A stretch of DNA of 39,582 nucleotides from Enterobacter phage vB_EholP_HHH, in sequence record PQ122694.1, one strand, 5' to 3'. Both the position numbers and the translations under genes were made by a program. Below, in pieces: positions 6,361-29,598 of this stretch; position 1 is the stretch's first letter, and each line of letters starts with the position of its first letter. The notes under the pieces are model-generated. The model was not told the DNA's origin. It was given only the letters and a program-made list of their open reading frames with translations, and ran no database searches.

Positions 6361-9042
6361 ATGAGCGTCATCTCTATCGACAAACACGACTTCTCTGATG
6401 TGTCGAATGCCATTGAGCCGTTTAACCTGCTGGCTGACCACTACGGGCAAGACCTTGCAGTCAAACAGCTTCAACTTGAGCATGAGGCATACACTGAAGG
6501 CGAGCGACGTTTCATCAAGAACCTTGAGCGCCAGACTGAGCGCGGGGAACTGGCAGACAATCAGGTCGCCAAGCCTTTGATGCAGACTCTGGTCCCTAAG
6601 ATTGCGCAAGCCGTCAAGGAGTGGCACGAAGGCCCAGACGGGAAGCTGTCAACCTCTCGTCCTAGCGTAGCGTTCACCATGTTGAGCACTGAAGAGAAGG
6701 CCGTCAAGGACCGCTCTCTGCGCATCTCCTGCGAGTCTGCTGCGGTTATCATCCTGAAGGTCATCCTCTCCAAGCTGGTCAAGCCTGAAGGGATACCGAT
6801 TACACCGATGGCCTCCTCGATAGGTCGCACACTTGAAGATGAAATCCGCTTCGGTCGCATCCGTGACAAGGAGCAAGAGCACTTCAGGAAGGCGATAGCT
6901 GATAACCTGAACAAGCGAGCAGGGGCATCATACAAGAAAGCCTACATGCAAGCGGTTGAGACCTCCATGCTGGAGCAAGGTCAACTGGAAGATGCGTGGG
7001 GAACTTGGAGTCCGACCGAAGCGGTACACGTTGGAATCAAGATGCTTGAGATTGTCATCCAGTCTACACAACTGGTCGAGCTTAAGCGTTACGGTGCTGG
7101 CAATGCAGCGGCTGACGTTGAGATGGTCCACCTGTCAGACTTCTGGGTAAAGAAGATGGCACAACGTGGTTTCAGCCTTGCGGGTATTGCGCCAGTCTAT
7201 CAGCCTTGCGTCGTTCCACCTAAGCCGTGGACGGGTGTAGTAGGCGGTGGGTACTGGGCTAAAGGCCGCAGACCGTTACCACTGATTCGCTTAGGGTCTA
7301 AGTCTGCGGTAGCACGTTACGAAGATGTGTACATGCCTGAAGTCTATGACGCTGTGAATATCATTCAGAATACACCTTGGAAAGTGAACAAGAAGGTGCT
7401 GGACGTGGTGAACATGGTCGAGAAGCTGAACAACACGCCTATTGACGACATCCCTCAGATGGAGCCGCTGAAGCCTGAGGACTATGCGGGTGAGACTGAA
7501 GATGAACTCAAGGCGTGGAAGAAGGCTGCTGCTGGAATCTATCGCCGCGAGAAGGCCAGACAGTCACGCAGATTGTCATTGAGCTTTATCGTCAACCAAG
7601 CGAACAAGTTCTCTCAGTTCAAGGCCATCTGGTTCCCATACAACATGGACTGGCGCGGTCGAGTCTACGCTGTGCCGATGTTCAACCCTCAGGGTAACGA
7701 CATGCAGAAGGGTCTCCTGACTCTGGCAGTCGGCAAGCCTATTGGTGCTGATGGTTTCAAATGGCTGAAGGTACACGGTGCAAACTGTGCGGGTGTCGAT
7801 AAAGTCACCTTCGAGGAGCGCATCAAGTGGGTGGAAGACAACCACGACAACATCATGGCTGCTGCTAAGGAACCGATGGATAGCATTGAGTGGTGGGGCA
7901 AGTTAGACTCTCCGTTCTGCTTCCTTGCGTTCTGCTTCGAGTATGCTGGCGTAATGCACCACGGACTGTCCTACTCCTGCTCGCTGCCGATAGCGTTCGA
8001 TGGGTCCTGCTCTGGGATTCAGCACTTCAGCGCGATGCTTCGTGACCACATCGGTGGACATGCAGTAAACCTGACGCCATCCGGTAAGGTCCAAGACATC
8101 TACCGCATCGTGTCTGACCGCATTGAGGAGGAGCTTAAAGTCCTGCTGGTTAACGGTACGGACAACGAGATGGTGACTCACGAGGACAAGAAAACTGGTG
8201 AGATTACCGAACGTCTCAAGCTGGGGACACGAGAGCTGGCCCGTCAGTGGCTGACCTACGGAATGTCACGTAAGGTCACTAAGCGTTCGGTCATGACTCT
8301 GGCCTACGGGTCGAAAGAGTATGGCTTCGCAGACCAAGTGTACGAGGACATCGTGATGCCAGCGATTGACTCAGGGTCTGGCGCGATGTTCACCGAGCCA
8401 AGCCAAGCGTCTCGCTTTATGGCTAAGATGATCTGGGAAGCTGTGAGTGTGACCGTAGTTGCTGCGGTGGACGCTATGAAATGGCTTCAAGGTGCTGCCA
8501 AGCTGCTGGCTGCTGAAGTGAAGGACAAGAAGACTGGCGAAATCCTGAAGCCTTGCCTTCCGGTACACTGGGTAACACCTGATGGTTTCCCGGTCTGGCA
8601 GGAATACCGCAAGAAGGATACCACTCGTCTGAACCTGATGTTCTTAGGGTCATTCAACCTTCAGCCTACGGTCAACAAAGGCACGAAGAAAGAGCTGGAC
8701 AAGCACAAGCAGGAGTCAGGCATTAGCCCGAACTTCGTCCACTCACAAGATGGTAGCCACCTCCGCAAGACTGTAGTCCACACGCACCACAAGTATGGCG
8801 TGATGTCCTTCGCGGTGATTCACGACAGCTTTGGGACCATCCCAGCAGACGCTGAGTTCCTGTTCAAGGGAGTCCGTGAGACGATGGTCGAGACCTACCG
8901 CGACAACGATGTGCTGCTTGACTTCTACGAGCAGTTTGAATATCAGCTTCACGAGAGCCAGCGCGACAAGTTGCCTGAGCTGCCGAAGCGCGGTAAACTG
9001 AACATCGAAGACATTCTACTATCTGATTTCGCATTCGCCTAA
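6361..9042 (+). CDS. gp1: Single-subunit DNA-dependent RNA polymerase (T7 gene 1-like)
   Basis: An 893-aa product collinear with T7 RNAP: MSVISIDKHDFSD.., FPYNMDWRGRVYAVPMFNPQGNDMQKGLLTL, LPIAFDGSCSGIQHFSAMLRD, HDSFGTIPADA, and the FAFA C-terminus. The track ORF starts at 6310 but runs through the promoter; the ATG at 6361 with SD AAGGA matches the T7 N-terminus. Confidence 0.95.
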   Translation: MSVISIDKHDFSDVSNAIEPFNLLADHYGQDLAVKQLQLEHEAYTEGERRFIKNLERQTERGELADNQVAKPLMQTLVPKIAQAVKEWHEGPDGKLSTSRPSVAFTMLSTEEKAVKDRSLRISCESAAVIILKVILSKLVKPEGIPITPMASSIGRTLEDEIRFGRIRDKEQEHFRKAIADNLNKRAGASYKKAYMQAVETSMLEQGQLEDAWGTWSPTEAVHVGIKMLEIVIQSTQLVELKRYGAGNAAADVEMVHLSDFWVKKMAQRGFSLAGIAPVYQPCVVPPKPWTGVVGGGYWAKGRRPLPLIRLGSKSAVARYEDVYMPEVYDAVNIIQNTPWKVNKKVLDVVNMVEKLNNTPIDDIPQMEPLKPEDYAGETEDELKAWKKAAAGIYRREKARQSRRLSLSFIVNQANKFSQFKAIWFPYNMDWRGRVYAVPMFNPQGNDMQKGLLTLAVGKPIGADGFKWLKVHGANCAGVDKVTFEERIKWVEDNHDNIMAAAKEPMDSIEWWGKLDSPFCFLAFCFEYAGVMHHGLSYSCSLPIAFDGSCSGIQHFSAMLRDHIGGHAVNLTPSGKVQDIYRIVSDRIEEELKVLLVNGTDNEMVTHEDKKTGEITERLKLGTRELARQWLTYGMSRKVTKRSVMTLAYGSKEYGFADQVYEDIVMPAIDSGSGAMFTEPSQASRFMAKMIWEAVSVTVVAAVDAMKWLQGAAKLLAAEVKDKKTGEILKPCLPVHWVTPDGFPVWQEYRKKDTTRLNLMFLGSFNLQPTVNKGTKKELDKHKQESGISPNFVHSQDGSHLRKTVVHTHHKYGVMSFAVIHDSFGTIPADAEFLFKGVRETMVETYRDNDVLLDFYEQFEYQLHESQRDKLPELPKRGKLNIEDILLSDFAFA

Positions 9043-9054
9043 GGAGGCACCTAC

Positions 9055-9255
9055 ATGAAATTCGCACACAAGCAGACTGGCGTTAATGGTGGGACTCAAA
9101 TCGTGACCGTAACAGAACACAACGGCAAGGGTCTGGTGAAGACCACGGTCATCCCAACCGAGATGTCCAAGCAACTTAACGTCCCGTTCAAATGGCTGGT
9201 GAAGCTGGTTCAAGAGCGACACGAGTCAGAACTCAGCGAGGCGGTAACGAAATGA
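9055..9255 (+). CDS. Hypothetical protein between gene 1 and phi1.1 (66 aa)
   Basis: Strong SD (CTAAGGAGGCACCTACATG). No T7 counterpart at this position (T3 has gene 1.05 here). Confidence 0.5.
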   Translation: MKFAHKQTGVNGGTQIVTVTEHNGKGLVKTTVIPTEMSKQLNVPFKWLVKLVQERHESELSEAVTK

Positions 9256-9333
9256 CAGACCTTCAGTGGCTGGGAGTCTGGCTCCTAGCACTTGCAGTAT
9301 TCACCCTAATCCAACGCAGAAGAGGTTAACCCT

Positions 9334-9801
9334 ATGTTCGGTAAGTCAAAACTTAAAGCGCAAATCAAAGAGTTGAGCATGAAGTCGGCATACTTGGAGC
9401 GAGCCGTAGCTGTCCGGGACAAGGACAACGAGAGGCTGAAGGATAAACTTGCTGAATCCGAGCGCCAACGCTTAACGCCGCCAGAGCCTGTGACTGTGAA
9501 GCGTATGGTCGGCATCAAGTTCAGGGCCCTATTCAACGGCATGTACCAACCGACTGAGTTCAAAACTGGGCCGGGTAACTGTGGGAAGAACGTTAAGCAC
9601 TTCACCATCTCGAAGACTGAACGTACACTGACCATCCACCAGCACCACATAGACGGGTCCCAGAAAGACTTTGAGTACCGACTGAGCGACATCGACGGTC
9701 GCATCCAGTATGACTACGAGCTGGTGCAGGTCTACGGCGAGGAGGCAGAGCAGGAACGTATAGTCCAATCCTTCCGCAACAGTCCACGATTCATACCCTA
9801 A
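9334..9801 (+). CDS. Hypothetical protein, N-terminal coiled coil (155 aa)
   Basis: SD is GAGG. The stop codon lies inside the phi1.1 promoter, a typical T7-like arrangement. No recognisable catalytic motif. Confidence 0.55.
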   Translation: MFGKSKLKAQIKELSMKSAYLERAVAVRDKDNERLKDKLAESERQRLTPPEPVTVKRMVGIKFRALFNGMYQPTEFKTGPGNCGKNVKHFTISKTERTLTIHQHHIDGSQKDFEYRLSDIDGRIQYDYELVQVYGEEAEQERIVQSFRNSPRFIP

Positions 9802-9819
9802 ACTATCACTATAGGATTA
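9797..9819 (+). promoter_or_regulatory. Phage RNAP promoter (phi1.1-like)
   Basis: CTAAACTATCACTATAGGATTAG with +1 G at 9814. Confidence 0.75.
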
Positions 9820-9861
9820 GACTCAAGGTCATGACTCAAAGTCGTGGCCTTCATGATTAAC
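9818..9861 (+). promoter_or_regulatory. Candidate RNase III site (R1.1-like), conserved structured element copy
   Basis: tagactcaaggtcatgactcaaagtcgtggccttcatgattaac. Shares its 5' box (tagactcaaggtcat) and 3' box (gtggcctt(t/c)atgatta) with 269-316 and 16840-16880. The central region forms a small hairpin. Confidence 0.5.
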
Positions 9862-9890
9862 CCTAAACTCAATACAATCAGGAGCTACAT

Positions 9891-10071
9891 CATGTATCAG
9901 AACACCATCAACTTCGAGCGCATCCGTGAACGTCAGCAGACCGAGGGCTACATTCCTAAGGGACGCAAGCTGAACAAGACAAAACGTGGTGGTGGCGTGA
10001 AGGGTGCTTTCCGTAACGCTGAAGGTAAGGACTCTATGGTCAACCAAGAGAAGTATTTCGTAGGAGCGTAA
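9891..10071 (+). CDS. gp1.1: T7 gp1.1-like small basic protein
   Basis: The motif KGRKLNKTKRGG matches T7 gp1.1 (ATKGRKLNKTKRDRSHKR). The ATG at 9891 follows SD CAGGAG. The track start at 9844 lies inside the hairpin element and was rejected. Confidence 0.55.
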
Positions 10072-10074
10072 GTC

Positions 10075-10335
10075 ATGAACCATTACGAGCTTAAAGATTT
10101 CGCAAAGAGTCTTGGACTTGTGGTTGAGCACGACTGGTATGAGGACCTGAATCGTAAACTTAAGGTCGAGCGAGTGTCATTCAGGACAGAACACAGGTAC
10201 TCACCAAAGAACGGACACGAGCGTGGCGACCTGATAGCGAGACTTGAGTTTAATGACTCAATGGGTCCAACAGAATACGCCGATGCCATCGGTCCAGCTT
10301 ACAACGCACTTAAACAATTTGAACTGTGGAGATAA
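10075..10335 (+). CDS. T7 gp1.2-like protein (host dGTPase inhibitor family by position)
   Basis: 86 aa (T7 gp1.2 is 85 aa). Same position between 1.1 and the ligase. Sequence similarity is weak (HDWYED..). Confidence 0.45.
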   Translation: MNHYELKDFAKSLGLVVEHDWYEDLNRKLKVERVSFRTEHRYSPKNGHERGDLIARLEFNDSMGPTEYADAIGPAYNALKQFELWR

Positions 10336-11372
10336 CCAGAATGACAACTATCAAGACCAACCCGCATCGCGCTGTAGATTACTCTGAGTCCGGCGTTAAG
10401 AAAGCACTGGACGCAGCCGGGTCGCTGGAAGCTGAAGTGAAGTACGACGGTGTGCGTCTCAACATCCCGGTCCTTCGTGAAGGTGAGACCTACTGGCTGA
10501 GCCGTGAGTCGAAACCTCTGCCAGCCTTGGAGTGGATGAACTCTGAGTTAGGCAATGCTTGGACCCAAGCTGACTGGCGTTGGTTCCTGCGTCAAGCTGG
10601 CTACGAAGGTGTGGGCCTGATGATTGACGGCGAGGTCATGGTTAAAGGTGTGGACTTCAACACATCATCAGGTCTCATCCGAACGAAGTGGCTGAAGCCT
10701 GACAACGAGGCGTTCGCTGAATGCTATCCGGGCCGTGGCAAGAAGGTCCCGTTCTGGGTCGCCAGGTCCCGACTTCAGGTTGTGGTCTACGGTGTCGTCG
10801 ACATGACGACCATAGCCGACCCGAAAGCCGAAGGTCCTATCCATAGCGTCACCCGCCTGAAAGCCGAAGCTATCGTCCCTCTCCTCCAGAAATACTTCCC
10901 TGAAATAGACTGGGTTCTATCTGAGTCACACACGGTCTTTGACCTTGAGTCGCTCAACTCCCTCTACGAAGAGAAGCGTCTGGAAGGACACGAGGGTCTG
11001 GTAGTAAAGGACCCACTGGGTAAGTACAAGCGTGGCAAGAAGTCAGGCATGTGGAAGATGAAGACTGAGGAGACCATCGACGGGACCGTGTGTGGCCTCG
11101 TTTGGGGGACTCCGGGTAAGGCCAACGAAGGAAAGGTTATCGGCTTCGAGGTTCTACTTGAGGATGGAATGGTGGTTAACGCCTGCGGCCTGACTGAGAC
11201 AAAGAAGGATGAGTACACCGCTGCGGTAAAAGAGTACCCAGAAGGTGAAGAGTTCTTCAACGGCTGGCAGTGCGAAGTCCTCTTCATGGAGCGGTTCCCT
11301 GACGGCTCCCTTCGTCACCCTAGCTTCAAGTGCTGGCGTGGAACGGAAGACAATCCAACCGTTAAGAGTTAA
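10326..11372 (+). CDS. gp1.3: ATP-dependent DNA ligase (T7 gp1.3-like)
   Basis: Adenylation motif EVKYDGVRL (KxDG), EGLVVKDP, and an OB-fold domain at the C-terminus. 348 aa. Confidence 0.9.
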   Translation: MEITRMTTIKTNPHRAVDYSESGVKKALDAAGSLEAEVKYDGVRLNIPVLREGETYWLSRESKPLPALEWMNSELGNAWTQADWRWFLRQAGYEGVGLMIDGEVMVKGVDFNTSSGLIRTKWLKPDNEAFAECYPGRGKKVPFWVARSRLQVVVYGVVDMTTIADPKAEGPIHSVTRLKAEAIVPLLQKYFPEIDWVLSESHTVFDLESLNSLYEEKRLEGHEGLVVKDPLGKYKRGKKSGMWKMKTEETIDGTVCGLVWGTPGKANEGKVIGFEVLLEDGMVVNACGLTETKKDEYTAAVKEYPEGEEFFNGWQCEVLFMERFPDGSLRHPSFKCWRGTEDNPTVKS

Positions 11373-11381
11373 CTAAACGTC

Positions 11382-11419
11382 AACCCAGTGGTCTTATGAC
11401 TGCTGGGTTTATTTCGTTT
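11382..11419 (+). terminator. Early terminator TE homologue (rho-independent)
   Basis: aacccagtggtc-ttat-gactgctgggtt forms a 12-bp stem with two G.U pairs, followed by tatttcgttt. It lies directly after the ligase gene, exactly where T7 TE sits. Confidence 0.65.
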
Positions 11420-11433
11420 AAGGAGGTGCCTAA

Positions 11434-11529
11434 ATGCTACATATTGTTATCCTTCCAGTGGCCTTGGTCGCTGCATACTGGTTCACCGTAGGTTACTGCA
11501 AGTTAATCAGTTACCTAACTGACAACTAA
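11434..11529 (+). CDS. Small hydrophobic peptide (31 aa; gene 1.4/1.5 position)
   Basis: Strong SD AAGGAGGTGCC. Product MLHIVILPVALVAAYWFTVGYCKLISYLTDN. Stop lies next to the following promoter. Confidence 0.3.
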   Translation: MLHIVILPVALVAAYWFTVGYCKLISYLTDN

Positions 11530-11547
11530 ACTATCACTGTAGGACAA
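11525..11547 (+). promoter_or_regulatory. Phage RNAP promoter (variant CACTGTAGGA)
   Basis: CTAAACTATCACTGTAGGACAAC with +1 G at 11542. Confidence 0.6.
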
Positions 11548-11575
11548 CCATAACTTCGACCTAAGGAGGCCGGCC

Positions 11576-11836
11576 ATGTTTAAGAACTTAATGTTCAACC
11601 GTTATTCCAATACCTTCCACCTGTCCAACAACCCGTTCGCTTGCATTAAGCGTAACGAGAAGCTGGGTTACTTCGGGAAGGCCATTAAGCTGTCACCTAC
11701 AGTCTTCGCTCTGATTACTCCGGGCAAAGCTGAAGAGGCTCGCCAGAAGCGTGAGACCAGCGTACCTGTGGTCTACACTAAGTGGCCTCGCGTTCGTCTG
11801 TTTGTTGAGTTCGTGAAGGAGGTGGTAAATGACTAA
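11576..11836 (+). CDS. T7 gene 1.6-position protein (86 aa)
   Basis: SD is CTAAGGAGGCCGGCCATG. Position and size match T7 gp1.6 (88 aa). Confidence 0.5.
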   Translation: MFKNLMFNRYSNTFHLSNNPFACIKRNEKLGYFGKAIKLSPTVFALITPGKAEEARQKRETSVPVVYTKWPRVRLFVEFVKEVVND

Positions 11837-12254
11837 GCACGAGCAGATAGTAGTTAAACTGGTGGAACAGAACACCAATAAACAAGATTCCCATAACTCC
11901 TGTCAGGGTACATCATGCCACGGCGTAGACTGTAGTGGATGCCCATTCAATGATAATGACGACGGAGAGATGACTTTAGGCAAACTCCGTGAGTCCATCA
12001 AGCCAGCAGTCACTGACGATGGTGTGCGCAAGCCCTCCCACTATCAGGTCTTTGACGGTGTGGAGTCCATTGAGATTATCGCCCGGTCCATGACTGTCAG
12101 CGAGTTCCGTGGCTTCTGCATGGGTAACGTCCTGAAGTATCGACTCCGAGCTGGTAAGAAGTCCGAGCTGGCTACTATGGAGAAGGACCTGAGCAAAGCG
12201 GCCTTCTATCAGGAGCTGTTCGACCTGCATAAAGGTAAGTGCTATGACTCCTAG
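11829..12254 (+). CDS. gp1.7: Nucleotide kinase (T7 gp1.7-like, shortened N-terminus)
   Basis: C-terminal [72 protein letters not shown] matches T7 gp1.7 (KPSHYMLFDDIEAIEVIARSMTVEQFKGYCFGNILKYRLRAGKKSELAYLEKDLAKADFYKELFEKHKDKCYA). Confidence 0.8.
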   Translation: MTKHEQIVVKLVEQNTNKQDSHNSCQGTSCHGVDCSGCPFNDNDDGEMTLGKLRESIKPAVTDDGVRKPSHYQVFDGVESIEIIARSMTVSEFRGFCMGNVLKYRLRAGKKSELATMEKDLSKAAFYQELFDLHKGKCYDS

Positions 12255-12339
12255 TAGCTGGTGTGAGATGATGTTCGAGAGGACAGGTAACGCTGACTAT
12301 CTCGAAATGTACAACCTCTGGAAAGGGAGAGGACTATGA
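12244..12339 (+). CDS. Small ORF (31 aa; gene 1.8 position)
   Basis: Start overlaps the 1.7 stop region. Weakly supported. Confidence 0.25.
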
Positions 12340-12500
12340 GTCAGGACGAGAAGAAGTACATCGTGGAACTTGAGGGTCGCGTTCAGTCCTTTGAGGTCCC
12401 GGTATACGCCAAGTCTCTGGACGAGGCGACCCTGAAGTCTCAGGAGTATGAAGATGCTGGTTTCGTGGTAGGCCGCATCAGACCTGAGCTGCGCGACTAA
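12336..12500 (+). CDS. gp2: Host RNA polymerase inhibitor Gp2-like
   Basis: [34 protein letters not shown] resembles T7 Gp2 ([34 protein letters not shown]). 54 aa. Stop lies within the next promoter. Confidence 0.7.
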
Positions 12501-12518
12501 ACTATCACTTTAGGAACA
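12496..12518 (+). promoter_or_regulatory. Phage RNAP promoter (phi2.5-like; variant CACTTTAGGA)
   Basis: CTAAACTATCACTTTAGGAACAC with +1 G at 12513. Confidence 0.6.
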
Positions 12519-12547
12519 CCTTAACTTTAACTAGGAGATTTACACCG

Positions 12548-13246
12548 ATGGCTAAAGAGCAACTGAAGACTTTCACCACTCCGGTAGCTGGTATCGTTGA
12601 GCCTTACGCATGGCTTAACAAAGCAGACACCAAGTTCAACGAGCGCGGTGAGCATAAAGTCAACCTGACATTCGACCTGAGCGACCCTAAGGTACGCAAG
12701 ATGATCGATGTCTTGCAGAAGATTCACGACGATGCGTATGCGAAAGCACTCGCAGACCACGAGAAGAACCCACCTCAGGTTCAGCGTGGCAAGAAGCCTA
12801 TCGAACCACGTGAAGGCGACATGCCGTGGATTGAGAACGGTGACGGCACTGTTACCCTGAAGTTCAAATGCTTTGCGTCTTACTTGAAAGACGGCAAGTC
12901 CGAGCCTATCGTATTACGGTTCTACGACACCGATGCTAAACTCATCCGTGACGTCCCGAATATTGGCTCAGGGTCTAAGCTGAAGGTCAAGTTCAAAGTC
13001 CTGCCCTTCAAGTGGAATGCTGCGACTGGTGCGAGCGTGAAGCTACAACTGGAGTCCTGCCTGCTGGTCGAACTGAAAGAGTGGTCCGGCGAGGGCAGTG
13101 GTGGCGATGGTGGCTGGGGTGACGATGAAGACATCGGCTCTGGTGGCTACAAAGCGTCTACTGACGGTGACTTCGGGTCTGACGACTTCGGTGAAGATGC
13201 CGATGGTGGTGATGACTCTGCGTCCGGTGGCGACTACGACTTCTAA
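12548..13246 (+). CDS. gp2.5: Single-stranded DNA-binding protein (T7 gp2.5-like)
   Basis: 232 aa (same as T7 gp2.5). OB-fold N-terminus and an acidic C-terminal tail ending DGGDDSASGGDYDF (T7 tail ends ..DF). Confidence 0.9.
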   Translation: MAKEQLKTFTTPVAGIVEPYAWLNKADTKFNERGEHKVNLTFDLSDPKVRKMIDVLQKIHDDAYAKALADHEKNPPQVQRGKKPIEPREGDMPWIENGDGTVTLKFKCFASYLKDGKSEPIVLRFYDTDAKLIRDVPNIGSGSKLKVKFKVLPFKWNAATGASVKLQLESCLLVELKEWSGEGSGGDGGWGDDEDIGSGGYKASTDGDFGSDDFGEDADGGDDSASGGDYDF

Positions 13247-13248
13247 TC

Positions 13249-13704
13249 GTGGCTGCATGGACACCAAAACGGGGGCACTCTGTGGGTGCCTACCGCTCTG
13301 GACTTGAGGCCAAGAACCAGCAGTGGCTGGAGCAGAACGGCGTCAAAGCGGAGTACGAAAGCCATTATATCAACTATGTGATTCCGGCTTCCGACCACAA
13401 GTACACACCAGACTTCATCCTTCCGAACGGAATCATCGTCGAGACCAAAGGCATCTTCGATAGTGAGGACCGTAAGAAGCATCTTCTGGTGCGCGAGCAG
13501 TACCCTGAGCTGGACATCAGGTTCGTGTTCTCCTCGTCTCGCTCAAAGTTATACAAAGGGTCTCCGACCACGTATGGTGCATGGTGCGAAAAGAACGGCT
13601 ATAAGTTTGCCGACAAGTTTATCCCGGTTGAGTGGCTGAAAGAGGCGACTGTGCGTCTGCCTTCCGGTATACTCATCCCGAAGAAAGGAGCTAAGAAATG
13701 CTGA
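13249..13704 (+). CDS. gp3: Endonuclease I, Holliday junction resolvase (T7 gp3-like)
   Basis: GAYRSGLE.., YTPDFILPNGIIVETKGIFDSEDRKKHLLVREQYPELDIRFVFSSSRSKLYKGSPTTYG is near-identical to the T7 endonuclease I core. GTG start is coupled to the 2.5 stop. Confidence 0.9.
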   Translation: MAAWTPKRGHSVGAYRSGLEAKNQQWLEQNGVKAEYESHYINYVIPASDHKYTPDFILPNGIIVETKGIFDSEDRKKHLLVREQYPELDIRFVFSSSRSKLYKGSPTTYGAWCEKNGYKFADKFIPVEWLKEATVRLPSGILIPKKGAKKC

Positions 13705-14168
13705 CCTGTAAAGACCTTAAAGTAGGAGCTTGGTATAAGTTCTCTCCGTCTGTTCTGGAGGACAACAACTTCACCAACGCTACGTTCGAAAAGAGAGAGG
13801 ACCATAGTGTCATCGTTGTGGTAGGCAACAACTTTGAGTCGGACTACGTTGGTGAAAAGACTTCATGGAACGGTCATCAGGACTGGGAAGTTGTGGAGGT
13901 CGAAACTCCTAACGCTGAGAAACCTCAAGTCCTACAAGCCTCCAGCATACCTCCTGTAGCGGTGAAACGAGAAGTCCTGACCATCGACAAGATTGGTGTA
14001 GGCCAGACGTTCATCGTTCATGGTCGCCCTGACGAAGTGTACGTGAAGATTAGCAACTCGCATGTCTTCAACCATAAGCGCCTACAGATGCACACGACTG
14101 TTAGCGAGCGCTTCAAGTCTCACCTGAATCTCGTAATCGTCGAGCTGGTGGTGTACAATGGTAAGTAA
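13698..14168 (+). CDS. Hypothetical protein inserted between genes 3 and 3.5 (156 aa)
   Basis: SD is AAAGGAG. T7 has no gene between endonuclease I and lysozyme. No recognisable motifs. Confidence 0.55.
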   Translation: MLTCKDLKVGAWYKFSPSVLEDNNFTNATFEKREDHSVIVVVGNNFESDYVGEKTSWNGHQDWEVVEVETPNAEKPQVLQASSIPPVAVKREVLTIDKIGVGQTFIVHGRPDEVYVKISNSHVFNHKRLQMHTTVSERFKSHLNLVIVELVVYNGK

Positions 14169-14616
14169 GGTTCAGTTCAAACCACGAGCCGTGACTGACG
14201 CAATCTTCGTCCACTGTTCAGCGACCCAACCGTCTCAGGACATCGGCGTAGATACTATCCGCATGTGGCACAAACAGCAGGGATGGCTGGACGTTGGCTA
14301 CCACTTCGTCATCAAACGCGATGGCACTGTGGAGTCTGGACGCCCGGTCGATGTAGTAGGGTCACACGTTAAGGATTGGAACTCCCGGTCCGTAGGCGTC
14401 TGCCTTGTAGGTGGAATTGACGCCAAGGGCAAGTTTGAAGCCAACTTCACTCCTGCTCAGATGAGCGCTCTACGCAACAAGCTGGCTGAACTGAAGGCAC
14501 TGTACCCTCAGGCAGACATCAAGGCTCACCACGATGTAGCACCAAAGGCTTGCCCAAGTTTCGACTTGCAGCGCTGGCTGAATACTAACGAACTGGTCAC
14601 TTCCGACCGAGGCTAA
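14158..14616 (+). CDS. gp3.5: N-acetylmuramoyl-L-alanine amidase / lysozyme, RNAP inhibitor (T7 gp3.5-like)
   Basis: VQFKPR..DAIFVHCSATQPSQ..WLDVGYHFVIKRDGTVESGR..GSHVK..NSRSVGVCLVGGIDAKGKFEANFTPAQM..AHHDVAPKACPSFDLQRW..NELVTSDRG is collinear with T7 lysozyme (151 aa). Confidence 0.9.
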   Translation: MVSKVQFKPRAVTDAIFVHCSATQPSQDIGVDTIRMWHKQQGWLDVGYHFVIKRDGTVESGRPVDVVGSHVKDWNSRSVGVCLVGGIDAKGKFEANFTPAQMSALRNKLAELKALYPQADIKAHHDVAPKACPSFDLQRWLNTNELVTSDRG

Positions 14617-14630
14617 TAAGGAGAATTAAC

Positions 14631-14843
14631 ATGATTAAGTTTATTGAATTTCTGGGTCGTCTGGTTGTGCGTGGTTATTCTCGTGCTGCGAGTGTGGAAC
14701 GAAAAGTCGCATCTGCTGCGGCTAAAGGTGCGGAAGCGGCTGCTGCGGAAGCGGATAGTCTTCGCATCAAGTCTCTTGACGCTGGCCTACGTGCCAAAGG
14801 CCTTGACAAGAAAGCCGAGCAACTGAAAGGCTTCTTCAGCTAA
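14631..14843 (+). CDS. Hypothetical Ala-rich helical protein (70 aa; gene 3.8 position)
   Basis: Strong SD TAAGGAGAATTAACATG. No HNH motifs (T7 gp3.8 is an HNH nuclease). Low-complexity AAAKGAEAAAAEA segment. Confidence 0.5.
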   Translation: MIKFIEFLGRLVVRGYSRAASVERKVASAAAKGAEAAAAEADSLRIKSLDAGLRAKGLDKKAEQLKGFFS

Positions 14844-14861
14844 ACTATCACCTTAGGGATG
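14839..14861 (+). promoter_or_regulatory. Phage RNAP promoter (phi4-like; variant CACCTTAGGGA)
   Basis: GCTAAACTATCACCTTAGGGATG with +1 G at 14856. Confidence 0.6.
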
Positions 14862-14908
14862 AGACCACGAGTCTTGTCCCTTTGTTCGCATTATTGACTA
14901 AGGAGTGA

Positions 14909-16615
<1,707 letters not shown>

Positions 16616-16659
16616 CCTTGAGTCAAGACTTGAAGAATCACTTAAACGGAGGGTAACTA

Positions 16660-16824
16660 ATGCTACGAAAACTTAAGGCCCGATACCACAGGTTCATGTT
16701 CAAGTGGTGGAGTGAGGAGGCAGACTGCCTGTCCCGAATCCTAGGAGAGCAGCGCTTTGAGTCTGCTGCGTGGAAGCGAGCGAACCGAAAGTTCATGTAT
16801 CACTTCCTGCGTACCGACTACTAA
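16660..16824 (+). CDS. Hypothetical basic protein (54 aa; gene 4.3/4.5 position)
   Basis: SD is ACGGAGGGT. Sits between gene 4 and the next promoter. Confidence 0.4.
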   Translation: MLRKLKARYHRFMFKWWSEEADCLSRILGEQRFESAAWKRANRKFMYHFLRTDY

Positions 16825-16842
16825 GCTATCACTGTAGGATAG
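16820..16842 (+). promoter_or_regulatory. Phage RNAP promoter (variant TAAGCTATCACTGTAGGA)
   Basis: CTAAGCTATCACTGTAGGATAGA with +1 G at 16837. Confidence 0.55.
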
Positions 16843-16880
16843 ACTCAAGGTCATTCACTTCGAGTGGCCTTTATGATTAG
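16840..16880 (+). promoter_or_regulatory. Candidate RNase III site (R4.7-like), conserved structured element copy
   Basis: tagactcaaggtcattcacttcgagtggcctttatgattag has the same boxes as 269-316 and 9818-9861, with a variable paired centre. Confidence 0.45.
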
Positions 16881-16895
16881 ACTATAGGAGACATT

Positions 16896-19067
16896 ATGAT
16901 TGACTTACAGAACATCTGGGGTTCGGACATCGAGACCAACGGTCTTCTTGATACCGTCTCTCAGTTCCACTGTGGGGTCCTGATTAACGCCGAGTCGAAT
17001 GAGACCCTGAAGTACGGGGTAGCTCCGATGGTAGGTATCGTCGGTGGCTTCAAAGAGTATGTGCAGAAGGTCGAAGAGATTGCAGCCACACCGCATGGAC
17101 TTCTGGTCTTCCACAACGGGATTAACTATGACGTCCCGGCTATTGACATCCTGAAGCGTAAGTATTTTGGTAAGCGTTTCAACTTCCCGAAACACAAGAT
17201 GATTGACACGCTGGTCATGGGCCGCCTGATGTACCCGAACATTAAGTTCTCGGACATGGGTGCTGTGAAAGCTGGTCGTCTTCCGCCTAAGATGATGGGA
17301 CGACAGTCTCTTGAAGCATGGGGATACCGTCTCGGTGAGATGAAGGGTGAGTACAAGACCGATTACATTGCCAAGTGCAAGGCAGAAGGTATCGAATATA
17401 AGGCTGGTGACGAGTGGTTACTCCCAAGCCAAGAGATGCTGGACTATAACGTCCAAGACGTTGTGGTCACTCTGGCCCTGTTCAAGAAGTTCCTTACCGA
17501 CAAGTTCTACTTCGGGTCTCCTGAGGCCGGACTTGAGGCTGTGTACGCACTGCGTCTCGAACATGATGCTGCGTGGACATGCGCTAAGATGGAACGTAAC
17601 GGCTACCCGATGAACTCGGATATAGTCGAAGGCTTGTATCGTGAGCTATCAGTCAAACGTGCAGAGCTTTTGGATAAGCTGCGGTCAACGTTCGGTAGTT
17701 GGTATTCACCTAAGGGTGGCAAAGAGTTCTTCAAGCACCCACGAACCGGGGTAGACCTACCGAAATACCCGCGAGTCATCTACCCGAAGGTAGGGGCAAT
17801 CTTCAAGAAGCCGAAGAACAAAGCTCAGCGCTTAGGTCTGGAGCCTTGCGAACGAGACTCCCGCGATACGATGGAAGGTGCACCGTTCACACCGATTACC
17901 TTCGTTGAGTTCAATCCGGGGAGTGGCGACCACTTAGCTAAGGTTCTGATGGACCGGGGCTGGGAGCCTACTGAGTTCACGGATACAGGGAAGCCTAAGT
18001 GTGATGACGAAACTCTGGAACACGTTAAGCTTGCAGACCCAGAAGCTCAGGCTTGCGTAGAGCTGGTCCGTGAGTATCTGGTGGTCCAGAAGCGCATTGG
18101 TCAGGCGGCTGAAGGTAAGAACGCATGGCTTCGACTTGTGGGTCCTGACGGAAGGATGCACGGGTCGATTAACCCATGTGGTGCTGTAACCGGACGTGCG
18201 ACTCACAGTTCACCGAACATGGCTCAGGTCCCGGCTAACGGTGCTCCTTGGGGTGAAATCTGCCGAAGTGCTTTCGGTGCTCAGTGGAACAAGAACAACG
18301 GCAAGCCAGACCCGTGGATTCAAGTTGGGGTCGATGCCTCAGGCCTTGAACTCCGTTGTCTGGGGAACCGTGCGTCCCCGTTCGATGGGGGTGAATATGC
18401 GAAGACTGTGGTCGAGGGTGACATCCACTGGGCTAATGCGGTCAACGCCGGGTTAGCGCCTAACGTCCCACGCGACAAGTCTAACCACGACCACGACGCT
18501 TACCGTAACAACGCTAAGACGTTCATCTATGCGTTCCTGTATGGCGCAGGTGCCGCGAAGATTGGACTGATAGTTGGCGGTGGTAAGAAGGAAGGTTCGG
18601 CCCTGATGAAGAAATTCATTGAGGGTACACCAGCTATCAAGGACCTGCGAGAGGCTGTGCAGAACACGCTCATCTCTGAGTCCAAGTGGGTAGACGGTGA
18701 GAACATCGTGAAGTGGAAACGTCGCTGGCTGAAGGGTCTGGACGGTCGACGCATTCACATCCGGTCTCCACACTCAGCACTGAACGCATTACTTCAAGGT
18801 GATGGTGCGGTAGTCTGTAAGCACTGGATTGTCGAGACAGAACGTATGCTCGAAGAGGCCGGGTATGTCCACGGCTGGGAAGGAGACTTCGCGTATATGG
18901 CATGGGTTCACGACGAATTGCAGATTGCGTGTCGTACTCAGGAGATTGCCGAAGAAGTAGTCAAGATTGCTCAGCTTGCTATGCGTAAGGTGGGTGAGTT
19001 CTATAACTTTAAATGCGTCCTTGACACCGAAGGGAAGATTGGACCAACGTGGAAGGAGTGTCACTAA
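16896..19067 (+). CDS. gp5: DNA polymerase (T7 gp5-like)
   Basis: 3'-5' exo motifs (DIETNGL), pol A motifs (RDKSNHDHDAYRNNAKTFIYAFLYGAG; VHDELQ). 723 aa. Confidence 0.95.
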   Translation: MIDLQNIWGSDIETNGLLDTVSQFHCGVLINAESNETLKYGVAPMVGIVGGFKEYVQKVEEIAATPHGLLVFHNGINYDVPAIDILKRKYFGKRFNFPKHKMIDTLVMGRLMYPNIKFSDMGAVKAGRLPPKMMGRQSLEAWGYRLGEMKGEYKTDYIAKCKAEGIEYKAGDEWLLPSQEMLDYNVQDVVVTLALFKKFLTDKFYFGSPEAGLEAVYALRLEHDAAWTCAKMERNGYPMNSDIVEGLYRELSVKRAELLDKLRSTFGSWYSPKGGKEFFKHPRTGVDLPKYPRVIYPKVGAIFKKPKNKAQRLGLEPCERDSRDTMEGAPFTPITFVEFNPGSGDHLAKVLMDRGWEPTEFTDTGKPKCDDETLEHVKLADPEAQACVELVREYLVVQKRIGQAAEGKNAWLRLVGPDGRMHGSINPCGAVTGRATHSSPNMAQVPANGAPWGEICRSAFGAQWNKNNGKPDPWIQVGVDASGLELRCLGNRASPFDGGEYAKTVVEGDIHWANAVNAGLAPNVPRDKSNHDHDAYRNNAKTFIYAFLYGAGAAKIGLIVGGGKKEGSALMKKFIEGTPAIKDLREAVQNTLISESKWVDGENIVKWKRRWLKGLDGRRIHIRSPHSALNALLQGDGAVVCKHWIVETERMLEEAGYVHGWEGDFAYMAWVHDELQIACRTQEIAEEVVKIAQLAMRKVGEFYNFKCVLDTEGKIGPTWKECH

Positions 19068-19270
19068 TGGAGACTCGAATCATTGAGGAGACTCGGGGTG
19101 ATGGCGTCAAGCTCTACTGGGTTCAGGTACGGACCCGCTGGCTGGGCTTCAAGGTATGGCGTTACACAGATAATCGCCCGGACTACAGCCTAAAGGAGGC
19201 CAAACAGAGGGCTGACGGACTGAAGAAGACCCACCTTCGAAGCAAGGTTTTATCCACAAGAATCCTATAA
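19067..19270 (+). CDS. Hypothetical protein (67 aa; gene 5.3 position)
   Basis: ATG overlaps the gp5 stop (TAATG) and follows SD AAGGAG. The track start at 19049 overlaps gp5 and was rejected. Confidence 0.45.
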   Translation: METRIIEETRGDGVKLYWVQVRTRWLGFKVWRYTDNRPDYSLKEAKQRADGLKKTHLRSKVLSTRIL

Positions 19271-19281
19271 GGAGAAACATA

Positions 19282-19566
19282 ATGGCTATTACTAAACGTC
19301 TGACCTGTAAGTTTGACCTGAAGATTGTCTTTACGGCTGAGGACGTAGAGTCCTACTCTCGCGAGCTGGTAGAGATGACCAAAGGTTATGTCTCAGGTGA
19401 GAAGCAGAACGGCCTGACCCGCAAACTGGTGGAGACTGCTGTAGAGCATGGGGTCGAAGCTGCTATTGAGCTACACCTGAAGTCTGTGCTAGCGTCCAAG
19501 CTGAAAGATGAGATGCCGGAAGACGGGGCTACCCTCTCTAATATCAGCGTGGGGTTCAAGCAATGA
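19282..19566 (+). CDS. T7 gp5.5-like protein (H-NS binding family by position/size)
   Basis: 94 aa with N-terminus MAITKRLTCKFDLKIVFTAED (cf. T7 MAMTKRFKVSFDVTAKMSSD). Confidence 0.5.
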   Translation: MAITKRLTCKFDLKIVFTAEDVESYSRELVEMTKGYVSGEKQNGLTRKLVETAVEHGVEAAIELHLKSVLASKLKDEMPEDGATLSNISVGFKQ

Positions 19567-19772
19567 GTGAATACCTGCGGGTCCTTGCGGCCCTCAAGTC
19601 CTGCCCGAAGACCTTTCAGTCCAACTATGTGCGGAACAACGCTGCACTGGTGGCTGAGGCTGCGAGTCGCGGACATCTGAGCTGCCTGTCTATGGACGGG
19701 CGTAACAACGGTGCGTGGGAGATTACCGCTGATGGCGTTAAGTTCCTGAACCAACACGGAGGCTGTCTATGA
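19563..19772 (+). CDS. gp5.7: T7 gp5.7-like protein
   Basis: MSEYLRVLAALKSCPKTFQSNYVRNNAALVAEAASRGHLSCLSMDGRNNGAWEITADG is near-identical to T7 gp5.7. Confidence 0.75.
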   Translation: MSEYLRVLAALKSCPKTFQSNYVRNNAALVAEAASRGHLSCLSMDGRNNGAWEITADGVKFLNQHGGCL

Positions 19773-20044
19773 GCCAACAACCTTTGGATTTTCTGGGCCA
19801 ACCCATCGAAGTGGGCGACAAGTTCGTCTACGCTGAAGCTGGTGGTCGAGGCGGTACAATGGCGCTCCACTCTGGGGTCGTCACACGGATGACTGAGAAG
19901 CAGGTGCTGGTGGAGAAGACCCGCTGGGGCCAGACTTGGCGTCCATTTAACTGTATCGTCATTGTCAAGAAGTGCGGCCCAGACGAGGAGCCTCTTCTAG
20001 GAGCAACCTTAGCGATGGCTAAAGGAGGTCTGCGGGATGAGTGA
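19769..20044 (+). CDS. Hypothetical protein at gene 5.9 position (91 aa)
   Basis: T7 gp5.9 (RecBCD inhibitor) is 52 aa and acidic. This ORF is larger and unrelated by eye. Confidence 0.5.
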   Translation: MSQQPLDFLGQPIEVGDKFVYAEAGGRGGTMALHSGVVTRMTEKQVLVEKTRWGQTWRPFNCIVIVKKCGPDEEPLLGATLAMAKGGLRDE

Positions 20045-29522: not shown

Positions 29523-29529
29523 CTTGTTG

Positions 29530-29579
29530 AAGGGCCTATAGATTTACCTTAACTATCACTATAGGGACTATAGGCCCTT
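29530..29579 (+). promoter_or_regulatory. 12-bp inverted repeat enclosing the phi13 promoter (candidate R13 RNase III site)
   Basis: aagggcctatag (29530-29541) and ctataggccctt (29568-29579) are perfect reverse complements flanking the promoter core. Confidence 0.45.
29547..29569 (+). promoter_or_regulatory. Phage RNAP promoter (phi13-like)
   Basis: CCTTAACTATCACTATAGGGACT with +1 G at 29564. Confidence 0.7.
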
Positions 29580-29598
29580 AAGGTTATAAGGAGACTTT

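What the first reader, a model, noticed from the sequence alone, without database searches (positions are those of the whole stretch)
9818..9861. Conserved ~45-bp structured element present three times at positions where T7 has RNase III sites
Copies at 269-316 (between 18 and 18.5), 9818-9861 (after phi1.1, before 1.1) and 16840-16880 (after the promoter before gene 5) share the 5' box TAGACTCAAGGTCAT and the 3' box GTGGCCTT(T/C)ATGATTA. Within the boxes, AAGGUCA can pair with UGGCCUU. The centres differ in sequence, but each forms its own small palindrome or hairpin (actacatgtagt; tgactcaaagtcg; cacttcgagtg). Conserved flanks with a co-varying paired centre suggest a selected RNA structure. 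The locations correspond to T7 R18.5, R1.1 and R4.7. A partial copy (GGACTCAAGGTCTAAGACTCC) follows the promoter before gene 1, where T7 has R1.
Basis: partly seen in the sequence, partly recalled or inferred. Interest (0 to 1): 0.55.

Follow-up and report, generated by a model that had tools for sequence, protein, structure and literature searches.

The report
T7-type RNase III processing sites
The repeated ~45-bp element is real, and it is this phage's version of the hairpins that the host enzyme RNase III cuts in phage T7 messenger RNA; this is a well-known kind of signal, present here six times rather than three.

Summary
Both boxes occur exactly three times on the + strand, which no shuffle reached, and each copy folds into a hairpin.

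T7's mapped RNase III sites carry the same boxes (ACUCAAGGUC...GGCCUUUAUGAUU). A covariance model built only from seven T7 sites recovers all three copies (38-48 bits, E 3e-9 to 6e-7).

Three more + strand copies lie in the early region, at 4227-4316, 4499-4558 and 5569-5627, making six. The next best score in the window is noise (11.9 bits). The "partial copy" before gene 1 is only a conserved 5' half-box: it has no 3' partner, no stable fold and no model hit.

Across 110 distinct family members from T7-like phages, 93% of pair cells are paired, against 26-49% when the partners are slid. Sixteen of 19 pairs show compensatory changes. G·U wobbles and the + strand-only hits point to a sense-strand RNA.

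The window is an undeposited Kayfunavirus (K1F group), about 91% identical to its nearest relatives. K1F and EcoDS1 have the sites in the same slots, unannotated, and Rfam has no family for them.

Verdict: a new member of a long-known kind, of low interest. Cleavage itself is inferred, not shown.

The parts
9812..9873 (+). Site S1.1, the copy named in the finding. It has a lower stem, an internal loop (ACUC / CAUGA) and a 12-bp upper stem with a CAA loop. It lies directly after the phage promoter at 9801-9816 and before gene 1.1 (ATG 9892). The predicted single cut is between 9854 and 9855 (UCAU|GAUU).
   Evidence: T7-only model 47.6 bits, E 3e-9. Family model 64.6 bits. Fold z = -5.05. Flanking genes 1.05 and 1.1 by Pfam. 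Cut position by alignment to the T7 sites.
263..329 (+). Site S18.5, between the stop codon of gene 18 (264) and gene 18.5 (ATG 371). Its upper stem is extended by the palindrome CUACUACAUGUAGUGG. The predicted cut is between 310 and 311.
   Evidence: 44.7 bits and 63.9 bits. Fold z = -4.58. gp18 assigned by Pfam PF11123. K1F and EcoDS1 have orthologous hits between genes 18 and 18.5.
16834..16893 (+). Site S4.7/5, directly after the promoter at 16824-16839 and 21 nt before the gene 5 ATG (16896). Its upper-stem arms (AAGGUCAUUC / GAGUGGCCUU) and internal loop (ACUC / UAUGA) are identical to those of T7 R1.1. The predicted cut is between 16874 and 16875.
   Evidence: 38.4 bits and 47.2 bits. 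Sequence identity to T7 R1.1 read. Alignment with the T7 R4.7/phi4.7 region and with K1F.
4499..4558 (+). It is of the T7 R1 type (ACAGGUC...GGCCUGA) and precedes a 62-aa ORF (ATG 4568). The predicted cut is between 4539 and 4540.
   Evidence: 44.6 bits, E 1.8e-8. 49.6 bits. Fold z = -3.09.
5569..5627 (+). Its upper stem (AGGCCACUACA...UAGUGGUCU) resembles that of T7 R18.5. The predicted cut is between 5608 and 5609.
   Evidence: 35.5 bits, E 3.6e-6. 39.8 bits. Fold z = -5.37.
4227..4316 (+). Site S0.3a, a sixth copy with a branched insertion of about 40 nt in the apical part of the upper stem. Its flanks are nearly identical to those of S0.3b. It precedes a 58-aa ORF (ATG 4328). The predicted cut is between 4297 and 4298.
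   Evidence: 31.3 bits. 34.8 bits, E 5e-6. Fold z = -2.59. K1F has a matching hit at 708-774 and EcoDS1 at 902-968.
9801..9816 (+). Phage RNA polymerase promoter core (AACTATCACTATAGGA). Its 3' end forms the 5' strand of the S1.1 lower stem.
   Evidence: One of 12 promoter matches in the window, against 0.22 expected by chance. EcoDS1 annotates a promoter at the orthologous position.
16824..16839 (+). Phage promoter core (AGCTATCACTGTAGGA, 2 mismatches to the consensus), directly upstream of S4.7/5.
14855..14895 (+). Candidate R3.8-type site, a different structural class. It is an 11-bp hairpin at the 5' end of the transcript from the promoter before gene 4, followed by UUGUUCGCAUU.
   Evidence: Shares the run GAGACCAC...TCCCTTTGTTCGCATT with T7 phi3.8/R3.8. 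Fold z = -2.16. Neither box-type model detects it, and the same models also miss T7 R3.8.

Best explanation
The elements are RNase III processing signals of the bacteriophage T7 type, and the window holds six of them. Each one, read in the sense-strand transcript, forms two stacked helices: a lower stem of about 9 bp and an upper stem of 10-12 bp. The helices are separated by a conserved asymmetric internal loop, 5' ACUC and 3' YAUGA. By homology with T7 R1.1, the host RNase III dimer binds this quasi-continuous helix of about 20 bp. Because the internal loop removes the partner strand, the enzyme cuts a single phosphodiester on the 3' side of the loop (YAU|GA). The cut splits polycistronic early transcripts (host polymerase) and late transcripts (phage polymerase) into discrete mRNAs. 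The upstream product ends in the upper-stem hairpin, which protects it from 3' exonucleases. The downstream product gains a new, unstructured 5' end 20-60 nt before the next start codon, which may improve translation. Shown here: sequence and structure homology, covariation, strand specificity and synteny. Inferred: the cleavage itself, its exact position, and its effects on mRNA stability and translation.
For: (1) T7's mapped sites carry the same boxes. (2) A model built from seven T7 sites alone finds five window copies at 35-48 bits, all on the + strand, with noise at or below 12.9 bits. (3) The broad family model finds six copies in the window, with the next best at 11.9 bits. In T7 it finds 8 of the 10 known sites and nothing else, including R6.5, which was not in the T7 training set. 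(4) Over 110 distinct sequences, 93.1% of pair cells are paired against 26-49% for slid partners. Sixteen of 19 pairs have double changes, including all 9 lower-stem pairs, which lay outside my search pattern. No shuffle out of 500 reached the observed values. RNAalifold, predicting freely, returns the same two helices. (5) G·U wobbles make up 16% of pair cells, so pairing would fall from 93% to 77% on the opposite strand. (6) K1F and EcoDS1 carry hits in the same intergenic slots. (7) The S4.7/5 upper stem and internal loop are identical to those of the biochemically characterised R1.1 substrate. The apical loop does not determine the scissile bond, and internal loops restrict cleavage to one bond and leave a protective 3' hairpin (PMC1540722). 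(8) T7 transcripts are processed by RNase III at such sites, and R1.1 is cut once into 47-nt and 13-nt products (PMC4858673).
Against: No cleavage data exist for this phage or, as far as I could find, for any Kayfunavirus. The host is unknown. The T7 cleavage coordinates were recalled from memory of Dunn & Studier 1983, because the T7 records held here lack the RNase III rows; they are, however, mutually consistent and fit the published 47 + 13 nt products. The covariation alignment was fitted to the model structure, and many loci were found through the conserved boxes, which inflates conservation of the upper-stem base. S0.3a and S0.5 depart from the box consensus. RNase III is dispensable for T7 growth, so the fitness role is modest or conditional.
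Confidence: 0.9

Rival explanations
1. The hairpins are structured mRNA elements that stabilise transcripts or regulate translation, but RNase III does not cut them in this phage. They might bind the enzyme without cleavage, or act purely as barriers to exonucleases.
For: Base-pair changes can uncouple RNase III binding from cleavage (PMC1540722). S0.3a, S0.3b and S0.5 deviate from the canonical boxes. The lower stem of S4.7/5 abuts the Shine-Dalgarno sequence of gene 5.
Against: The three focal copies keep the first 7 upper-stem base pairs and the internal loop of cleaved T7 sites unchanged, and S4.7/5 matches R1.1 over the whole upper stem. The internal-loop sequence is more than 90% conserved across the family, which a simple exonuclease barrier would not require.
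Confidence: 0.05
2. The elements act at the DNA level, as palindromes that form cruciforms or single-strand hairpins used in replication, recombination or packaging.
For: The DNA of T7 RNase III sites forms hairpins that trigger the Lamassu/DdmABC defence system in either orientation (PMC11707656), so a DNA-level phenotype exists for this element class.
Against: G·U wobbles make up 16% of pair cells and would be mismatches on the other strand. Antisense model scores are 10-17 bits against 35-65 for the sense strand. Every copy lies in the direction of transcription and between genes. The DdmABC effect is a liability to the phage and not a function it would be selected for.
Confidence: 0.03
3. 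The copies are neutral dispersed repeats from recent duplication or a small mobile element, and have no function.
For: The boxes are identical in three copies, and S0.3a and S0.3b have nearly identical flanks, which suggests a local duplication.
Against: The same slots are occupied in K1F, EcoDS1, T7 and hundreds of other phage records: 477 records match the S1.1 slot. The centres and lower stems differ between copies but keep their pairing, which neutral repeats would not do.
Confidence: 0.01
4. The elements are intrinsic transcription terminators or attenuators.
For: They are G+C-containing hairpins between genes.
Against: The terminator scan over 1-20000 lists none of the six + strand sites. 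The tail UAUGAUUA has only 4 U in 8 nt. A genuine strong terminator lies elsewhere, at 11382-11409 after the ligase gene.
Confidence: 0.01

Closest known systems
Bacteriophage T7 RNase III processing sites R0.3, R0.5, R1, R1.1, R1.3, R4.7, R6.5 and R18.5 (Dunn & Studier 1973 and 1983; R1.1 is the standard E. coli RNase III substrate)
   Same: The conserved boxes are the same (ACUCAAGGUC...GGCCUUUAUGAUU). So is the architecture of lower stem, 4/5-nt internal loop and upper stem, the sense-strand intergenic placement, and the genomic slots (R18.5, R1.1, R4.7 and the early region). S4.7/5 shares the whole upper stem and internal loop with R1.1.
   Different: The box-type set is smaller: six sites here, against the eight that the model finds in T7. 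There is no site before gene 1 or before the ligase gene, because genes 1.2 and 1.3 overlap. The gene 5 site lies downstream of its promoter, whereas in T7 R4.7 lies upstream of phi4.7. Apical loops and lower stems differ in sequence. The phage has no gp0.7 kinase, which in T7 stimulates RNase III. No cleavage data exist.
Orthologous unannotated elements in Kayfunavirus genomes (K1F NC_007456, EcoDS1 NC_011042)
   Same: Model hits fall in the same five or six slots, all on the + strand. The S1.1 centre (AUGACUCAAAGUCGU) is identical in K1F.
   Different: The centres of S18.5 and S4.7/5 differ between K1F and the window but keep their pairing. Neither record annotates the sites.
T7 R3.8 and R13 class (promoter-proximal 5' hairpins cut by RNase III)
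   Same: The window has an R3.8-type hairpin at 14855-14895 with the same 3' tail, CCCUUUGUUCGCAUU.
   Different: This is a different structural class from the finding: it has no AAGGUC/GGCCUU boxes and no lower stem, and the box-type models do not detect it.
T7 R6.5-type split sites (a phage promoter inside the upper stem)
   Same: T3-like loci L017 and L058 show the promoter-in-loop form within this family. The window has a 12-bp inverted repeat enclosing the gene 13 promoter, at 29530-29579.
   Different: The window's enclosing hairpin has AAGGGCC/GGCCCUU arms but lacks the ACUC/YAUGA internal loop, and the models do not detect it. Its membership is unproven.

Membership tests
T7-group RNase III processing signals (box type, R1.1-like) | Sequence plus structure match to experimentally mapped T7 sites | tested here: met
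   A covariance model built only from seven T7 sites scores the three focal copies at 38.4-47.6 bits (E 3e-9 to 6e-7) and two further copies at 35.5 and 44.6 bits. Noise is at or below 12.9 bits.
T7-group RNase III processing signals (box type, R1.1-like) | Two coaxial helices totalling about 20 bp, separated by an asymmetric internal loop | tested here: met
   Single-sequence folds, the T7 consensus fold and a free RNAalifold prediction on 150 sequences all give a lower stem of about 9 bp, a 4/5-nt loop and an upper stem of 10 bp or more.
T7-group RNase III processing signals (box type, R1.1-like) | Helices maintained by compensatory substitutions | tested here: met
   93.1% of pair cells are paired, against 26-49% for slid partners. 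Sixteen of 19 pairs show double changes. The covariation score is 0.494, against at most 0.109 for slid partners. No shuffle out of 500 reached the observed values. Caveat: the alignment was fitted to the model.
T7-group RNase III processing signals (box type, R1.1-like) | Acts in the sense transcript: oriented with transcription and located between genes | tested here: met
   All six hits are on the + strand, like all the long ORFs. G·U wobbles make up 16% of pair cells.
T7-group RNase III processing signals (box type, R1.1-like) | Synteny with T7 sites | tested here: met
   The R18.5 slot lies between genes 18 and 18.5, and the R1.1 slot between genes 1.05 and 1.1. The R4.7 slot aligns with T7, including the phi4.7 promoter remnant. 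The three early-region sites are only approximately equivalent to R0.3 and R0.5.
T7-group RNase III processing signals (box type, R1.1-like) | Proximal and distal box base pairs free of antideterminants, with at least about 11 bp of helix between the cut and the loop | tested here: inconclusive
   S4.7/5 is identical to the cleaved substrate R1.1 across the upper stem and internal loop, and S18.5 and S1.1 are identical over the first 7 bp. I did not have the exclusion table, so distal-box positions in the other copies were not evaluated (PMC1540722).
T7-group RNase III processing signals (box type, R1.1-like) | Site-specific cleavage by host RNase III in vitro and rnc-dependent ends in vivo | not testable with these tools
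Any curated Rfam family | Score at or above the family's gathering threshold | tested here: not met
   No hits at gathering thresholds across the whole window. The only weak hit at S1.1 is RAGATH-13, at 15.5 bits against a gathering score of 80. Rfam appears to have no family for these sites.
Intrinsic (rho-independent) terminator | G+C-rich hairpin followed directly by a U tract | tested here: not met
   None of the six + strand sites appears in the terminator scan of 1-20000.

The most novel reading that the evidence does not exclude
The internal-loop and box sequences (5' ACUC, 3' YAUGA, AAGGUC/GGCCUU) are more than 90% invariant across 110 distinct sites from several genera of T7-like phages. 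Yet E. coli RNase III substrates as a class share no conserved positive sequence determinants (PMC1540722). That excess conservation could reflect a second, undescribed constraint on these elements. Candidates are a phage or host protein that reads the loop, or selection on the DNA hairpin, which is now known to be sensed by Lamassu/DdmABC (PMC11707656).
Probability: 0.1. Interest if true: 0.45.

Novelty: new member of a known kind. Interest (0 to 1): 0.15.

Why it matters
The value is mainly practical. These sites define the real mRNA units of a Kayfunavirus and give predicted mRNA ends, which helps with engineering or expression work on K1F-type therapeutic phages. They are missing from the two Kayfunavirus records I read in full (K1F, EcoDS1) and were not named in any sampled record. 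They are also missing from Rfam, so the model built here could annotate them across hundreds of T7-like genomes. They are also candidate DNA triggers of Lamassu/DdmABC defence. None of this changes how we understand the mechanism, which has been textbook knowledge for T7 since the 1970s and 1980s.

Tried and rejected
- **Rfam.** A whole-window scan at gathering thresholds and an E-value scan of the S1.1 region found nothing relevant.
- **T7 records.** NC_001604 and V01146 as held here do not list the RNase III features, so I used coordinates recalled from Dunn & Studier 1983. I checked that they all fall in the same motif column and fit the published 47 + 13 nt R1.1 products.
- **K1F genome paper.** It is not held in the library. 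Full-text searches combining RNase III with K1F or T7-like found no description of these sites in Kayfunavirus. One search call failed on a term that was too short.
- **Partial copy before gene 1.** Rejected as a site. It has no 3' partner, folds with z = -0.56, and has no model hit. It is nevertheless conserved almost base for base in K1F.
- **R1.3 equivalent.** None exists, because genes 1.2 and 1.3 overlap and leave no intergenic gap.
- **Terminator reading.** Rejected.
- **Host promoter inside the S0.3a insertion.** A TTGACT hexamer is present, but no correctly spaced -10 element.
- **gp0.7 kinase.** No homologue; the best tblastn E-value is 0.19.
- **Minus-strand near-matches to the 5' box.** These have 3 mismatches, are isolated and lack a 3' box, so they were not pursued.

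Full report
**Observation**

The 5' box TAGACTCAAGGTCAT occurs exactly at 269, 9818 and 16840, and the 3' box GTGGCCTTYATGATTA at 300, 9844 and 16864, all on the + strand. None of 100 dinucleotide-preserving shuffles gave as many matches to either box. The fold z-scores are -4.6, -5.1 and -2.8. The flanking genes also match:
- Copy 1 lies between the gp18 packaging protein (PF11123) and the next ORF.
- Copy 2 lies between a gene 1.05 homologue (PF25755) and gene 1.1 (PF08200).
- Copy 3 lies directly before the family A DNA polymerase.

**What the window is**

It is a circularly permuted genome of a T7-supergroup phage of the K1F group (Kayfunavirus). The nearest deposited genomes are Salmonella Typhi Kayfunaviruses such as ST59 and ST66, about 91% identical over about 90% of the first 25 kb. 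Twelve copies of the phage promoter core AACTATCACTATAGGR lie on the + strand, against 0.22 expected by chance. Two of them, at 9801 and 16824, run straight into a full element.

**Homology to T7 RNase III sites**

The sequence shows more. T7's own processing sites carry the same boxes:
- R0.5: GATAGACTCAAGGTCGCTCCTAGCGAGTGGCCTTTATGATTATCAC
- R1.1: ACAAACTCAAGGTCATTCGCAAGAGTGGCCTTTATGATTGACC
- R4.7: CCTCAAGGTCGCCAAAGTGGTGGCCTTCATGAATAC

The T7 records held here lack the RNase III feature rows, so I used site coordinates recalled from Dunn & Studier 1983. All of them fall in the same motif column (YAT|GA), and they fit the published single cut of R1.1 RNA into 47-nt and 13-nt products.

Seven T7 sites, aligned on their own, give the classic architecture: a 9-bp lower stem, a 4/5-nt asymmetric internal loop, a 10-bp upper stem and a variable apical loop.

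**Independent membership test**

I built a covariance model from those seven T7 sites only, with no window sequence in it, and ran it over the window with filters off. It returned five hits, all on the + strand; the best remaining score was 12.9 bits.

| Window hit | Bits |
|---|---|
| 9812-9873 | 47.6 |
| 263-329 | 44.7 |
| 4499-4558 | 44.6 |
| 16835-16892 | 38.4 |
| 5569-5627 | 35.5 |

A sixth copy, at 4227-4316, has an apical insertion of about 40 nt and appeared in a later search. A broader model, built from 150 family members, confirmed it at 34.8 bits (E 5e-6), and the next best window score was 11.9 bits. On T7 the broad model recovers 8 of the 10 known sites and nothing else at E ≤ 10. 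One of the eight is R6.5, which was not in my T7 training set. The two it misses, R3.8 and R13, are a structurally different class.

**Covariation**

Running the T7-only model over the 80 fetched loci, K1F and the window gave 183 hits. The best 150 of these, 110 of them distinct, were aligned.
- 93.1% of pair cells form standard pairs, against 26-49% when the 3' partners are slid by 1-3 columns.
- 16 of 19 pairs show changes on both sides. These include all 9 lower-stem pairs, which were not part of my search pattern.
- No shuffle out of 500 reached any of the observed measures.
- RNAalifold, predicting freely on the same alignment, returns the same two helices.

Two caveats apply. The alignment was fitted to the model, and many loci were found through the boxes themselves.

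G·U wobbles make up 16% of pair cells, so pairing would fall from 93% to 77% if read on the other strand. Antisense model scores are only 10-17 bits. The structure is therefore in the sense-strand RNA and not in the DNA. The internal loop is also conserved in sequence: 5' ACUC and 3' (U/C)AUGA, each position above 90% apart from the first 3' position (U or C).

**Synteny**

K1F and EcoDS1 have hits only on the + strand and only in the same slots: before 0.3, near 0.5, after the promoter before 1.1, before gene 5, and between 18 and 18.5. Hits score at least 29.8 bits and noise at most 16.8 bits. Neither record annotates the sites, although EcoDS1's curators marked promoters and terminators. 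The S1.1 slot is conserved in 477 phage records, and none of the sampled annotations names an RNA-processing site there.

Aligning copy 3 with T7 R4.7 shows true orthology. T7's downstream phi4.7 promoter is reduced in the window and in K1F to the remnant ACTATAGGAG, which now supplies the Shine-Dalgarno sequence of gene 5. The working promoter lies upstream of the site instead.

**The partial copy before gene 1**

The stretch at 6287-6307 has the 5' half-box (GGACTCAAGGTC) but no 3' partner. It folds no better than shuffled sequence (z = -0.56), and neither model detects it. The leader is almost identical in K1F, so it is conserved, but it is not a recognisable R1-type site.

**Mechanism (inferred from homology)**

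Internal loops in RNase III substrates restrict cleavage to one phosphodiester and leave a 3' hairpin that protects the product from 3'-5' exonucleases. An 11-bp helix between the cut and the loop is the shortest that gives significant reactivity, and the apical loop does not set the scissile bond (PMC1540722). In T7, the early precursor of about 7 kb is cut at five such sites, later transcripts are also processed, and RNase III is dispensable for growth but improves translation of several mRNAs (PMC4858673).

Copy 3 has the same upper-stem arms (AAGGUCAUUC / GAGUGGCCUU) and the same internal loop as R1.1. It differs only in the apical loop and lower stem. I therefore predict single cuts at 310/311, 4297/4298, 4539/4540, 5608/5609, 9854/9855 and 16874/16875. 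Each cut would give an upstream mRNA capped by a hairpin and a downstream mRNA starting 20-60 nt before its start codon.

For S1.1 and S4.7/5, the promoter's initiating bases form part of the lower stem, the same arrangement as T7 phi1.1A with R1.1. Read-through transcripts therefore carry the full site, while promoter-initiated transcripts carry a slightly shorter one.

**Rivals**

- *Terminators*: none of the six sites is terminator-like. A real terminator lies at 11382-11409, after the ligase gene.
- *DNA-level palindromes*: the G·U wobbles and strand asymmetry argue against this as the selected function. Even so, T7 RNase III site DNA has been shown to trigger Lamassu/DdmABC (PMC11707656).
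- *Neutral repeats*: excluded by cross-genus synteny combined with compensatory change.
- *Binding without cleavage*: cannot be excluded for the divergent early-region copies.

**Verdict**

The finding is real and correctly interpreted, but the element belongs to one of the oldest known classes of phage RNA signals. It is a new member of a known kind: unannotated in this lineage, absent from Rfam, and present six times rather than three. Cleavage remains untested.

Noticed in passing
window 4227-4316 and 4499-4558: Two RNase III-type sites with nearly identical flanks (GACTAACTACAGG...CCTGACTGATAGTCACTAAC). Each is followed by a small ORF (58 aa and 62 aa), which looks like a local tandem duplication of a site-plus-gene unit. 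The first carries a branched apical insertion of about 40 nt.
   Followed up: partly
window 14855-14895: The hairpin after the promoter before gene 4 ends in CCCTTTGTTCGCATT, the same string as T7 R3.8. It is a candidate RNase III site of the second class, the promoter-proximal hairpins. A strict pattern search did not find the string in K1F or EcoDS1.
   Followed up: partly
window 29520-29585 (arms 29530-29541 and 29568-29579): A perfect 12-bp inverted repeat, AAGGGCCTATAG...CTATAGGCCCTT, encloses the gene 13 promoter, as T7's R6.5 site encloses phi6.5. Fold z = -2.8. It is identical in K1F and EcoDS1, so there is no variation for a covariation test. The box-type models do not detect it.
   Followed up: partly
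window 6287-6345: The gene 1 leader carries the 5' half-box (GGACTCAAGGTC) and a direct repeat, AAGTGAAAGAC, twice. The leader is almost identical in K1F. Its function is unknown and no stable fold is predicted.
   Followed up: partly
window 16881-16890: ACTATAGGAG, just after site S4.7/5, aligns with the 3' part of T7's phi4.7 promoter. It is a promoter remnant that now provides the Shine-Dalgarno sequence of gene 5. Gene 4.7 is absent.
   Followed up: yes
window 11382-11409: A strong terminator-like hairpin (12 bp, followed by a U-rich tail) lies right after the ligase gene, at the position of T7's early terminator TE. EcoDS1 annotates TE in the same place.
   Followed up: no
window 4300-6300 (early region): There is no homologue of the T7 gp0.7 kinase, which stimulates RNase III in T7 (best tblastn E = 0.19). 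K1F and EcoDS1 also list none. This lineage therefore keeps RNase III sites without the kinase.
   Followed up: partly
window 300-470 and 9844-10071: Two ORFs in the mechanical list start at the GTG of the 3' box (GTGGCCTT). These starts are artefacts of the element. Gene 1.1 most likely starts at ATG 9892, behind an AGGAG Shine-Dalgarno sequence.
   Followed up: yes
L017:4590-4669 and L058:2929-3007 (T3-like viral contigs): These family members carry a T3-type promoter (AATTAACCCTCACTAAAGGGA) inside the apical loop. They show that the R6.5-style split architecture recurs in other T7-group phages.
   Followed up: no
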